From Escherichia coli 042 (GTDB lineage Bacteria; Pseudomonadota; Gammaproteobacteria; Enterobacterales; Enterobacteriaceae), in assembly GCF_000027125.1 (NCBI RefSeq), contig NC_017626.1: a DNA stretch of 64,000 nt. One strand, given 5' to 3'. Made by a program: the position numbers. Below are positions 54,901 through 57,900 of this stretch, piece by piece (the first letter of the stretch is position 1; the number at the start of each line of letters is the position of its first letter).

Positions 54901-57900
54901 AAGCCATTACGCTCATCTTCCGTCACCGGTCCCATCCGCGAACAAGGCGCAATCACCATCGCCCGTTCCACCACAGAAGGACTTCCTTTTGCATCGAGAA
55001 ACGAGATTAACGCCTCGCCGGTCCCCAGTTCCTGGATTGCCTTTTCCGTATCAAATGCAGGGGTGGGGCGCATGGTTTGCGCCGCAGCTTTTACCGCTTT
55101 CTGATCTTTGGGCGTAAAAGCACGCAAAGCGTGTTGAACGCGATTACCGAGCTGGCCGAGCACATTATCTGGAATATCAGACGGGTTTTGCGAAACGAAC
55201 CAGACGCCCACGCCTTTTGAGCGAATAAGCCTTATCACCTGCTCAATCTTATCCAGCAGTACCTGCGGGGCATCGTTAAATAGCAGATGTGCCTCGTCGA
55301 AGAAAAACACCAGTTTTGGTTTCTCCAGATCGCCCGCTTCCGGCAATTGTGCATACAACTCTGAAAGCATCCACAGCAGGCTGGCGGCGTACAGTTTCGG
55401 CATCTGATAAAGCTTCTCGGCGCTGAGGATATTGATAACGCCTTTACCGTTGGCATCGGTGCGCATCCAGTCTTTGATATCCAGCATCGGCTCACCAAAG
55501 AAGTGTGCTGCGCCTTGCTGTTCCAGCGACAACAGCCCGCGCTGGATGGCACCAACCGATGCGCTACTGATATTTCCGTACTGATTCTGGAAGGATTTGG
55601 CGTTATCGCCGATGTACTGGGTAATTGCCCGCAGATCTTTAAAGTCGAGCAGTAACAGCCCCTGATCGTCAGCAATGCGGAAAATGATATCCAGCACGCC
55701 AGATTGCACATCGTTGAGATTCAACAGTCGCGCCAGCAACAGCGGTCCCAGATCCGAAACCGTCGCCCGCACCGGATGGCCTTTCTCGCCAAAGATATCC
55801 CACACCACCACCGGATTGGCATGCGGTTGCCAATCATTGACGCCGATATTTTTAAGCCTTGCGAGCAGTTTTTCCGACGCCGTTCCTGCCTGCGCGATAC
55901 CGGTCAGATCGCCTTTCACATCAGCCATAAACACCGGCACGCCGATTTCCGACAATGACTCTGCCAGTTTTTGCAGCGTAACGGTTTTACCCGTCCCCGT
56001 TGCGCCGGTAATCAGCCCGTGACGGTTCGCCATTCCCGGCAGTAAAAACAGTTCTGTGTCCGGCGTGCGGGCAATTAACAGGGGTTCGCTCATGAGATTT
56101 CCTCCAGTTTCCTGCCTGGAGTATAGGCAACGGCTGCGCACTCTTCACCGCTAAATTCAGCAGATTGCGAGACGCCTTCCAAAGAGATTTAAGTGCCGGG
56201 CGACAGGCACCCGGCAAAGAGATCAGAAGTCAGCTTTCAGAACCACGCGGTAACGCGCCTTACCGTCGCGCACATGCTTGATGGCATCGTTAATTTTCGA
56301 CATCGGGAACAGTTCGGTGGTCGGCGCAACCTTGCTACGGGCGGCAAAGCGCATCAGCTTTCGCAGCTCATAAGGCGTGCCGGTAGCAGAACCAGAGATG
56401 CTGCGGTCGCCCGCAATTAACGTAAAGGCTGGAACAGACAGCGGCGTGAGAACCGCACCGACCGTATGGAAATTACCGCCATAGGTCAGCGCCTCAAAAT
56501 AAGGCGGCCAGTCGAGGCTGACGTTCACAGTATTGATAATGAGATCAAACTGCCCCGACAGGGCTTTCAGTGCCTGCGGATCGCGGCTATTCACCACTTT
56601 ATCGGCACCCATCGCCAGTACTTCCTGCTCTTTCTCCGGATTAGAACTAAAGGCCGTCACCTCGCATCCCATTGCGTGCAGAAGTTTTATAGCGATATGC
56701 CCCAGCCCGCCAATACCAATTACCCCAACGCGGCTGGTAGCAGTGATATGGTGCATCAACAGTGGTTTAAAGACCGTGATACCGCCGCACAACAGCGGCC
56801 CGGCGGACTCGATATCAATATTTTCTGGCAGTGGAATCACCCATTGCCAGTCCGCACGCAACTTCTCGGCAAAGCCACCGCGATTCATAATCGTCGGCAC
56901 AGCACCTTGCTCGCAGTTGATCTGATTACCGCTAATACAGGCGTCGCAGTGACCACAGCTACGCGCCGTCCAGCCAATCCCGACACGCTGACCGACCTGC
57001 AAACCTTTATCCTGCGCGGCGCTCCCGAGTGCCACCACGCGCCCAATCACTTCATGCCCGGCAACCAGCGGATATTGTGAAAATCCCCATTCGTTATCGA
57101 TCATCGACAGATCGGAATGGCAGATCCCGCAGTAATCCACCTGCACTTCAATATCTTGTGGCTTCAGCTCACCGGGATCGTACTCATAAACTTCCAGTTC
57201 GCCGCCCGCTTCTTTTGCGGCATAGCTTCTTATCATCGACATTTTTTGGTCCTTCTCTGGTGTTGTCTGGGAAGTGTAGAGCATGGCAGGGCGGGGTGCC
57301 TGGAGTGTGACAAAGGTTACACATCGCTGTATGCAATGCTGAAAATTTCAGCACTTAGCGAGATGCGAGCAAGCTGGCGCTTGCATGGTGGCGTGCGACA
57401 GGTATAATCCACAACGTTTTCCGCATACCTCTTCAGTGCCGAAGTGGCGAAATCGGTAGACGCAGTTGATTCAAAATCAACCGTAGAAATACGTGCCGGT
57501 TCGAGTCCGGCCTTCGGCACCATCGGAACATCAATAGACGTCAACGGACGTCTTTTTTTGTGCCTGAAATCCAGTATCCGCAAGGCTTTCCTCGATTTTC
57601 CTTTCAACAGAAGTCAATCTGAGTCAACCCACATCAAGTCGCTTGTGAGTATAGAACCGAGTATATATGCTGGTTCGATAATGGTTGTATACTCACAGCG
57701 GCACATGGAAGGAGAACTTTTATGGCTCTGACAGATATCAAAGTGCGTTCTGCAAAACCACAGGAAAAGGAGTATACCCTTGCCGATGGAGATGGCATGT
57801 TTTTGCTCATTCACCCTAACGGCTCAAAATACTGGCGGTTTCGCTTTCGCTTTGGTGGTAAGCAGCACCTGATGGCATTTGGGGTTTATCCTGAAACGTC

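What the first reader, a model, noticed from the sequence alone, without database searches (positions are those of the whole stretch)
57645..57697. Nested inverted repeats in the integrase upstream region
GTGAGTATAGAACC (57645..57658) and GGTTGTATACTCAC (57684..57697) form a 13/14 inverted repeat about 25-75 bp upstream of the integrase start, with an inner GAACC/GGTTC pair. This could be an operator for integrase autoregulation or an arm-type site near attL.
Basis: seen in the sequence. Interest (0 to 1): 0.3.

Follow-up and report, generated by a model that had tools for sequence, protein, structure and literature searches.

The report
Integrase arm-binding sites beside leuX
The inverted repeat is real, but it is two of three copies of a short motif where a phage-P4-like integrase most likely grips the DNA next to its own gene, an ordinary and already understood part of how such genomic islands insert at a tRNA gene.

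Summary
It is not a nested palindrome. It is the first and third of three copies of TGAGTATA: two direct copies 12 bp apart (57647, 57659) and one inverted copy (57688). Phage P4, whose integrase is 56% identical and whose 20-bp att core equals window 57503-57522, has the same layout just before int, annotated "attP arm sequence repeat". In 13 aligned relatives the motif changes in all three copies together, and each motif class has its own integrase N-terminal sequence. Of 50 viral-contig loci, 39 show the layout, against 0 of 1000 shuffles. Two complete E. coli leuX islands (EC01307, FORC_041) carry the window's left-end sites and, at their right end, two tandem TGAGTATA copies 68 bp from the core copy, as in P4's P arm. 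These are therefore P'-arm integrase-binding sites of attL. Autorepression of int is inferred from P4 and KplE1 and was not shown here. The inner GAACC/GGTTC pair is not conserved. This is a new sequence variant of a known kind and of low interest. An invariant TTCGAT between copies 2 and 3 remains unexplained.

The parts
57438..57522 (+). tRNA-Leu(CAA) gene leuX, the integration target
   Evidence: ARAGORN; Rfam tRNA at 59 bits.
57503..57522 (+). att core, GAGTCCGGCCTTCGGCACCA, at the 3' end of leuX
   Evidence: Identical to the 20-bp core annotated in P4 attP (L002 618-637). Copies of it end sister islands.
57536..57560 (+). Hairpin followed by a T-run. It is a terminator for leuX and lies to the right of the core, so the island supplies it.
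   Evidence: Terminator scan. The stem changes with compensating bases between island types (ACGTC/GACGT versus ACCTC/GAGGT).
57603..57638 (+). Four phased NTCAAY boxes (TTCAAC, GTCAAT, GTCAAC, ATCAAG) with an exact 10-bp period. They are candidate sites for an excisionase (Vis/AlpA type) or a host bending protein. This assignment is inferred.
   Evidence: None of 20000 shuffles gives even three boxes in phase. The boxes are conserved in motif classes A and B. P4 has TCC(G/T) at L002 709, 719, 729 and 739 in the same place (read).
57645..57656 (+). Arm-type site P'1 (GTGAGTATAGAA, core GAGTATA 57647-57653). This is the left arm of the reported inverted repeat.
   Evidence: It corresponds to the P4 arm repeat at L002 750-761.
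57657..57668 (+).
   Evidence: (D2). It corresponds to the P4 arm repeat at L002 762-773.
57674..57679 (+). TTCGAT. Its TCGA lies on the dyad between P'2 and P'3. The hexamer is invariant across the family. Its function is unexplained.
   Evidence: Invariant in all 13 aligned sequences, P4 included. Present between copies 2 and 3 in 39 of 39 loci that have the triple layout.
57685..57696 (-). Arm-type site P'3 (TGAGTATACAAC on the minus strand, core 57688-57694). This is the right arm of the reported inverted repeat.
   Evidence: It corresponds to the inverted P4 arm repeat at L002 789-800.
57643..57671 (+). Best sigma-70 promoter candidate for int: TTGTGA, 17-bp spacer, TATGCT. It overlaps P'1 and P'2. 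This is a prediction only.
   Evidence: The home-made weight-matrix scan scores it 9.0. The same scan ranks the annotated P4 Pint first, at 11.0. It falls below the threshold of the consensus scan and is not conserved in position in class B.
57722..58975 (+). int, a P4-family tyrosine integrase of 417 aa with an N-terminal arm-binding domain
   Evidence: Pfam: Arm-DNA-bind_3 at residues 3-87, Phage_int_M at 99-193, Phage_integrase at 206-384. It is 55.7% identical to P4 Int.

Best explanation
The repeat is part of the P' arm of attL of a P4-family integrative island sitting in leuX. Three copies of TGAGTATA are the arm-type binding sites: P'1 at 57645-57656, P'2 at 57657-57668 and the inverted P'3 at 57685-57696. 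They are bound by the N-terminal Arm-DNA-bind_3 domain of the integrase encoded 25 bp downstream. In the excised circular form these three sites and two more on the other arm hold integrase molecules. The catalytic domains of those molecules act on the core at the leuX 3' end, and together they build the recombination complex. In the integrated state the same sites lie over the likely int promoter, so bound integrase should lower its own transcription. What is shown here: the anatomy, its identity in layout with P4's annotated arm repeats, the concerted change of the motif across relatives, and the presence of the motif on both arms of sister islands. What is inferred: physical binding by Int, and autorepression. 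In this genome no matching right end was found, so the sites probably no longer serve excision and may keep only the regulatory role.
For: (1) P4 has the same layout, and GenBank annotates it as 'attP arm sequence repeat'. It has two direct 12-mers, then one inverted 12-mer just before int, and two direct 12-mers on the other side of the core. The spacings nearly coincide. The direct period is 12 in both. Copy 2 to the inverted copy is 29 bp in the window and 28 in P4. The second P-arm copy to the core TCCGG is 68 versus 66 bp.
(2) The core at window 57503-57522 equals the P4 core, and Int is 55.7% identical to P4 Int with an Arm-DNA-bind_3 domain.
(3) In the 13-sequence alignment the flanks stay alignable while the motif is replaced in all three copies at once. 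The classes are GAGTATA, G[CT]GGGTA, [TA]TGGTA and TGGGGGCA. Each class has its own sequence in Int residues about 37-55.
(4) In 50 further viral-contig loci, 39 have the triple layout with at most one mismatch, against 0 of 1000 shuffles. They fall into at least 8 motif classes, each with its own Int N-domain sequence.
(5) E. coli EC01307 has an Int 93% identical to the window's and a P' arm that differs at one base. Its right end, 33 kb away, has TTGAGTATACAAGTGAGTATATAG 68 bp before a core copy.
(6) FORC_041 has a P' arm identical to the window's and the same kind of right end. Two further right ends of this type are in L009 and L021.
(7) For regulation, P4 Int represses its own promoter by direct DNA binding near the transcription start (Piazzolla 2006, as described in PMC2951348 and PMC7286903). 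Integrase genes lying just after a tRNA gene in the same orientation, with spacers of about 200 bp, are generally autorepressed (PMC2951348). The spacer here is 199 bp.
Against: No binding or expression data exist for this integrase. The promoter is only a weak prediction and its position is not conserved across classes, so the overlap of sites and promoter is uncertain. The link between motif class and Int N-domain class could partly reflect physical linkage, since they lie 30-100 bp apart. This genome (CV839-06) has no core copy within 50 kb of leuX, and it is not among the 11 genomes that match a class-A right end. The recombination role therefore cannot be illustrated in this strain.
Confidence: 0.85

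Rival explanations
1. The two arms pair in the int mRNA leader to form a 15-bp hairpin that controls termination, stability or translation.
For: The RNA fold of 57636-57725 gives -36.5 kcal/mol with a z-score of -6.2. Copy 1 and copy 3 change together across relatives, which would keep the stem. From memory of the Piazzolla 2006 abstract, which is not held in the library, P4 int is also controlled after transcription starts.
Against: Any long inverted repeat gives such a z-score. Copy 2 is a direct repeat outside the stem, yet it changes in step with the other two. The same motif occurs as a tandem direct pair 20-33 kb away at island right ends, outside any int transcript. The best predicted promoter would start transcription downstream of the left arm. 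No Rfam family matches.
Confidence: 0.05
2. The motif is the operator of a different protein, such as a Vis/AlpA-type excisionase or an island repressor, rather than of the integrase.
For: Inverted repeats are typical of dimeric helix-turn-helix regulators. In P4 the excisionase Vis also lowers int expression (PMC7286903, PMC2951348).
Against: The five-site distribution, two on the P arm and two direct plus one inverted on the P' arm, is the one annotated as arm repeats in P4. Motif classes track the Int N-terminal domain. No excisionase gene is annotated in the complete sister islands that keep the sites. A better candidate for excisionase sites is the separate array of four phased TCAA boxes at 57603-57638.
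Confidence: 0.08
3. The repeat is a chance palindrome in AT-rich intergenic DNA and has no function.
For: The inner GAACC/GGTTC pair is of this kind. A fourth GAGTATA at 57770 inside int is explained by the codons for K-E-Y and is absent from relatives.
Against: Only 1 of 2000 shuffles reaches 14/15. The layout recurs in 39 of 50 related loci against 0 of 1000 shuffles. It is retained at 51-81% Int identity while the surrounding sequence diverges.
Confidence: 0.02

Closest known systems
Phage P4 attP and Int (GenBank X05947, X51522, NC_001609; Pierson and Kahn 1987, cited from memory and through PMC7286903)
   Same: Same target (leuX), identical 20-bp core, and int immediately right of the core. 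The P arm has two tandem direct 12-mers. The P' arm has two tandem direct 12-mers plus one inverted. Spacings agree to within 1-2 bp, except the core-to-P'1 distance (125 bp here, 115 bp in P4). TTCGAT lies between P'2 and P'3. Four boxes phased at 10 bp lie upstream of P'1.
   Different: The arm motif is TGAGTATA instead of TGGGGGCA. The phased boxes are TCAA instead of TCCG. P'3 ends 25 bp before the ATG, whereas in P4 it abuts the start. The annotated P4 -10 (CATAAT, at the P'1/P'2 junction) has no counterpart at that position. Int is only 56% identical. The element is a large, IS-ridden island rather than an 11.6-kb satellite phage.
Phage lambda Int arm-type sites (P1, P2, P'1-P'3); comparison from general knowledge, with PMC9791396 and PMC4880445 seen in the search list only
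   Same: A two-specificity integrase whose N-terminal domain binds repeated arm sites on both sides of the core, two on one arm and three on the other.
   Different: The three lambda P' sites all point the same way; here the third is inverted. Lambda int is not transcribed from a promoter inside attL, so the sites are not an autoregulatory operator there. The arm-binding domains belong to different Pfam families.
KplE1 IntS/TorI attL of E. coli K-12 and the autorepressed tRNA-then-integrase arrangement (Panis et al. 2010, PMC2951348)
   Same: The tRNA gene is followed in the same orientation by int. The spacer of about 200 bp holds the whole attL arm. Arm sites overlap the int promoter. Int and the excisionase both repress int.
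   Different: The integrase subfamily and the target (argW) differ. Repression was measured there and only inferred here.
P4-like integrases of the pathogenicity islands of E. coli 536 (PMC7286903; Hochhut 2006 and Wilde 2008 cited there and in PMC7545054, not read)
   Same: P4-family integrases next to tRNA genes. IntI of PAI I represses its own promoter. PAI II sits at leuX.
   Different: I did not determine which arm-motif class the strain 536 leuX integrase belongs to. The arm sites of those islands are not described in the papers I could read.

Membership tests
P4-type attachment site (arm-type sites of a two-specificity tyrosine integrase) | The adjacent integrase has an N-terminal arm-binding domain plus core-binding and catalytic domains | tested here: met
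   Pfam: Arm-DNA-bind_3 at 3-87 (E 2e-29), Phage_int_M at 99-193, Phage_integrase at 206-384. It is 55.7% identical to P4 Int over 98% of its length.
P4-type attachment site (arm-type sites of a two-specificity tyrosine integrase) | The core is at the 3' end of a tRNA gene, with int next to it on the island side | tested here: met
   leuX is at 57438-57522. Its last 20 bp equal the annotated P4 core. int starts 199 bp further on.
P4-type attachment site (arm-type sites of a two-specificity tyrosine integrase) | Several copies of one short motif in the arm, with the number, orientation and spacing seen in P4 (two direct at a 12-bp period, then one inverted) | tested here: met
   GAGTATA at 57647 and 57659 (+) and at 57688 (-). 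P4 has GGGGGCA at 752 and 764 (+) and at 792 (-).
P4-type attachment site (arm-type sites of a two-specificity tyrosine integrase) | The same motif is present on the other arm (P arm, at attR) | tested here: inconclusive
   Not met in this genome: no core copy within 50 kb of leuX, and CV839-06 is absent from the 11 genomes with a class-A right end. Met in sister islands with the same or a 93% identical Int. EC01307, FORC_041, 2273-PO3 and an IMG/VR contig each have two TGAGTATA copies 12 bp apart, 68 bp before the core copy.
P4-type attachment site (arm-type sites of a two-specificity tyrosine integrase) | The motif co-varies with the integrase across relatives (a recognition code) | tested here: met
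   There are four classes among 13 aligned loci and at least eight among 39 further loci. Each class has its own Int N-domain sequence, and all copies within a locus change together. Caveat: the sites and the N-domain coding region are tightly linked.
P4-type attachment site (arm-type sites of a two-specificity tyrosine integrase) | Physical binding of the integrase N-domain to the sites | not testable with these tools
   Needs gel shift or footprinting.
Autoregulatory operator of an integrase promoter (P4 Pint, KplE1 PintS type) | The sites overlap the -35/-10 or the start of the int promoter | tested here: inconclusive
   The best candidate, TTGTGA-17-TATGCT (57643-57671), overlaps P'1 and P'2 and scores 9.0 in a scan that ranks the annotated P4 Pint first. 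It fails the 9-of-12 consensus scan and is not conserved in position in class B.
Autoregulatory operator of an integrase promoter (P4 Pint, KplE1 PintS type) | Int supplied in trans lowers int promoter activity | not testable with these tools
   Shown for P4, IntS, IntC, IntF, IntL and IntI of strain 536 in the literature (PMC2951348, PMC7286903), but not for this integrase.
Structured cis-regulatory RNA in the int leader | A match to a described RNA family, or covariation that only a stem explains | tested here: not met
   No Rfam match other than the tRNA. The covariation includes a direct copy and distant right-end copies that cannot be part of a stem.

The most novel reading that the evidence does not exclude
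The P4-family attachment site is a fixed scaffold: a 12-bp direct pair, an inverted third site, an invariant TTCGAT on the dyad, and phased boxes upstream. Different arm motifs and matching integrase N-domains have been swapped into it. This gives at least eight mutually non-cross-reacting recombination systems that share one tRNA core. That would explain how unrelated islands and P4-like satellites pile up in tandem at leuX without excising each other. The hybrid junctions seen here have a P4-type P arm, a core copy, and a class A, B or C P' arm. In this reading the invariant TTCGAT is read by a conserved partner that has not yet been identified.
Probability: 0.35. Interest if true: 0.45.

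Novelty: new member of a known kind. Interest (0 to 1): 0.2.

Why it matters
For this window it matters little. The repeat is the expected integrase-binding architecture of a P4-type island, and it helps mark the exact left boundary and internal layout of the leuX island. The absence of a matching right end suggests that the island in this strain can no longer excise. More broadly, the comparison gives a simple sequence rule for finding arm sites of P4-family integrases: an 8-mer twice at 12 bp, TTCGAT, then the inverted 8-mer. It also gives a table of motif classes paired with integrase N-domain sequences. That table could guide tests of recombination specificity or the design of non-cross-reacting integration tools.

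Tried and rejected
- **Right end of the island in this genome.** I searched 13.5 kb and then 50 kb beyond leuX for a core copy with up to 3 mismatches and found none. GAGTATA is not clustered there.
- **More right ends in viral contigs.** The pattern search returned only the contig already in hand.
- **Consensus promoter scan.** It found nothing on the + strand upstream of int. My own weight-matrix scan gave a candidate, but its position is not conserved across classes.
- **Rfam.** Nothing matched except the tRNA.
- **A small hairpin around the ribosome-binding site, upstream of the ATG.** The consensus energy is -0.68 kcal/mol with one convincing covarying pair, which is too weak to claim.
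- **TTCGAT as a box for the P4 excisionase Vis.** It is not enriched in the P4 genome (5 copies against 6.6 expected), and none of the five copies lies in the late-promoter region 9020-9600. This gives no support.
- **TTCGAT as a copy of the tRNA T-loop (GGTTCGA).** Only TTCGAT is invariant; the preceding GG is present in about half of the classes. This stays open.
- **IHF consensus matches**, checked by eye around 57630-57645 and around TTCGAT. The spacing is off by one base. Not claimed.
- **The fourth GAGTATA at 57770.** It is explained by codons and is absent from relatives.
- **Papers not held in the library.** Piazzolla 2006 was requested and is not held. Wilde 2008 appeared only as a citation in other papers and was not requested. 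Pierson and Kahn 1987 was not requested either.
- **The genome contigs and metagenome scans** were not used. The answer did not need them.
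Full report
**Setting**

The window is E. coli chromosome. 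Positions 57430-59050 are 100% identical to strain CV839-06. tRNA-Leu(CAA), leuX, lies at 57438-57522. It is followed 199 bp later by a 417-aa open reading frame at 57722-58975.

That protein has an Arm-DNA-bind_3 domain (residues 3-87), a phage integrase central domain and a tyrosine recombinase catalytic domain. It is 55.7% identical to the integrase of satellite phage P4. The last 20 bp of leuX, GAGTCCGGCCTTCGGCACCA, are identical to the annotated core of P4 attP. The finding therefore lies in the island-side arm of attL of a P4-family island.

**The observation**

The outer inverted repeat is real. The match is 13/14, and it extends to 14/15 over 57644-57658 and 57683-57697.

- One of 2000 dinucleotide-preserving shuffles of the spacer reaches 14/15.
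- Only three places in the 64 kb have such a repeat.
- The inner GAACC/GGTTC pair is present but is not conserved in close relatives.
GAGTATA sits at 57647 and 57659, exactly 12 bp apart, and the inverted copy TATACTC sits at 57688.
- Four of the eight GAGTATA copies in the window lie within 130 bp here. The fourth, at 57770 inside int, is spelled by the codons for Lys-Glu-Tyr and is missing from relatives, so I set it aside.

**Comparison with P4**

The P4 GenBank records annotate "attP arm sequence repeat" features. Two direct 12-mers (TTGGGGGCATAA, TTGGGGGCATCT) are followed by one inverted 12-mer just before int. Two further direct 12-mers lie on the other side of the core.

The layout in the window is the same:

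| Measure | Window / class A | P4 |
|---|---|---|
| Direct-repeat period | 12 bp | 12 bp |
| Second direct copy to inverted copy | 29 bp | 28 bp |
| End of core to first copy | 125 bp | 115 bp |

The reported inverted repeat is thus site 1 and site 3 of a three-site array. I call the sites P'1, P'2 and P'3.

**Conservation and concerted change**

I aligned the region from the core to the int start in 13 loci: the window, six E. coli genomes chosen across the identity range, EC01307, four IMG/VR contigs and P4. The flanks remain alignable, but the motif is replaced in all three copies at once:

- GAGTATA in seven loci
- G[CT]GGGTA in four
- [TA]TGGTA in one
- TGGGGGCA in P4

Each class has its own sequence in the integrase N-terminal domain, for example YWRFRFRFGGKQHLMAFG, YWRLRYRFGGKEKMLALG, YWRLQYRFDGKQKMLALG and YWRMKYRRPSDKKEDRLAFG.

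A wider sample came from 80 viral-contig loci with integrases 51-81% identical to the window's. Fifty of them have at least 200 bp upstream. In 39 of these a script finds an 8-mer twice at exactly 12 bp and its reverse complement 28-32 bp later, with at most one mismatch in total. None of 1000 shuffled controls does. At least eight motif classes appear, each tied to a distinct N-domain sequence.

**The other arm**

If these are arm sites, the same motif should occur near the core copy at the right end of an island of the same class. It does.

- **IMG/VR contig.** The contig carries two islands in tandem. Left of the second core lies TTGAGTATACAAGTGAGTATATAAAG, and the first island has a GAGTATA-type left arm.
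- **E. coli EC01307.** This strain has a 33-kb leuX island. Its integrase is 93% identical to the window's and its left arm differs from the window's at one base. Its right end has TTGAGTATACAAGTGAGTATATAG before a core copy.
- **E. coli FORC_041.** This strain has a 20-kb island carrying dnd/dpt genes. Its left arm is identical to the window's, and its right end is of the same kind.
- **Strain 2273-PO3.** It has a fourth right end of this type.

In all four, the two copies are 12 bp apart and the second lies exactly 68 bp from the core TCCGG. The figure for P4 is 66 bp.

In the window's own genome no core copy was found within 50 kb, and the strain is not among the 11 genomes that match such a right end. 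The island there is an IS-ridden mosaic and probably cannot excise.

**Mechanism**

- **Shown here:** the anatomy, its identity in layout with P4's annotated arm repeats, the concerted change of the motif, and the two-arm distribution.
- **From established knowledge of two-specificity tyrosine integrases** (lambda, P4): the N-terminal domain binds the arm sites while the C-terminal domains bind and cut the core. Bending proteins bring the arms and the core together.
- **From the literature:** P4 Int represses its own promoter by binding DNA near the transcription start, and the excisionase Vis also lowers int expression (Piazzolla 2006, as described in PMC2951348 and PMC7286903). Integrase genes lying just after a tRNA gene in the same orientation, with a spacer of about 200 bp that holds attL, are generally autorepressed (PMC2951348).
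- **Inferred here:** Int bound at P'1-P'3 represses int. The support is modest. A home-made sigma-70 scan that ranks the annotated P4 promoter first puts the window's best candidate at TTGTGA (57643-57648), a 17-bp spacer, and TATGCT (57666-57671), which overlaps P'1 and P'2. That candidate fails the stricter consensus scan, and its position is not conserved in the second motif class.

**Rivals**

An RNA hairpin in the int leader would fold well, with a z-score of -6.2, and arms 1 and 3 do co-vary. But the hairpin does not explain the co-varying direct copy or the tandem pairs at island right ends. The predicted start of transcription lies inside it. No Rfam family matches.

A separate regulator is less likely because the five-site pattern is the one annotated as arm repeats in P4 and tracks the integrase N-domain. 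Chance is excluded.

**Other features of the arm**

- **Phased boxes.** Just upstream of P'1 are four boxes, TTCAAC, GTCAAT, GTCAAC and ATCAAG, with TCAA at an exact 10-bp period (57603-57638). None of 20000 shuffles gives even three in phase, and the boxes are conserved in the two commonest motif classes. P4 has TCC(G/T) at four positions with the same period in the same place (read). These are plausible excisionase or bending-protein sites, but I did not test this.
- **Invariant TTCGAT.** The hexamer at 57674-57679 has its TCGA on the dyad between P'2 and P'3. It is invariant in all 13 aligned loci and in 39 of 39 loci with the triple layout, although the arm motif around it changes. It is not enriched in P4 or present at P4's late promoters. 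It remains unexplained.

**Verdict**

This is a new sequence variant (TGAGTATA) of a well-known kind of site, so interest is low. The family-wide rule, the motif classes and the invariant TTCGAT are the only parts that go beyond what I could find described. The open-access library held no description of them, but the key P4 and strain 536 papers were not available to read.

Noticed in passing
window 57603-57638: Four NTCAAY boxes with TCAA at an exact 10-bp period lie just upstream of the first arm site. They are conserved in relatives. P4 has TCC(G/T) boxes with the same period in the same place. They may be excisionase or bending-protein sites.
   Followed up: partly
window 57674-57679: TTCGAT lies between arm sites 2 and 3, with its TCGA on the dyad. 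It is invariant in every relative examined, P4 included, although the arm motif changes. It is not a simple Vis box by the P4 test. It resembles the tRNA T-loop TTCGA.
   Followed up: partly
L005-L007, L009-L011, L016, L020, L021 (core copies); window 57506-57522: Every secondary core copy at a right end or tandem junction reads CCTTCGCACCA, one G shorter than the tRNA's CCTTCGGCACCA. This may show on which side of that G strand exchange occurs.
   Followed up: no
L005 9720-9745, L006 9719-9741, L007 9705-9730, L010 6117-6138, L016 268-290, L021 340-398: These are hybrid junctions in tandem arrays at leuX. In most, a P4-type P arm (TGGGGGCAC...GGGGCA) is followed by a core copy and then the P' arm of another motif class. 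In L021 a class-A P arm is followed by a class-C P' arm. In ESY003 the left neighbour carries a retron St85 reverse transcriptase.
   Followed up: partly
window 57536-57560: The leuX terminator hairpin lies to the right of the core, so each island brings its own. The stem differs between island types with compensating changes (ACGTC/GACGT versus ACCTC/GAGGT). The chromosomal version reappears after the right-end core.
   Followed up: no
window 59244-63475 and L001 18195-23242: The island cargo next to int is a 794-aa protein with two GHKL-type ATPase domains and a 616-aa partner with a weak receiver-like match. Outside the window follow a PAPS-reductase-family protein, a 1110-aa protein and a DUF4007 protein. 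This looks like a phosphorothioate-type defence module. The sister islands carry dnd/dpt or McrBC in the same position.
   Followed up: partly
window 63511-63553: A 19-bp, nearly perfect AT-rich inverted repeat (TCTCAATGTGAGCTAATTA / TTATTAGCTCACATTGATA) lies 36 bp after the stop of the 616-aa ORF. It is one of only three such repeats in the window.
   Followed up: no
L004 (CV839-06, 50 kb beyond leuX): The island in this strain is a mosaic with many IS fragments, the fec operon, PTS genes and virK/lpxM. It has no recognisable right-end core copy, so the integrase has no partner site for excision.
   Followed up: partly
window 57704-57725: A small hairpin around the ribosome-binding site and the ATG is predicted in the window. 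A 4-bp version in relatives shows one covarying pair. It is too weak to claim.
   Followed up: partly
L042, L043, L084, L086, L037, L096: In several distant lineages the inverted third arm site abuts or overlaps the int start codon, with the ribosome-binding site between TTCGAT and the site, as in P4. In the window it ends 25 bp before the ATG.
   Followed up: no
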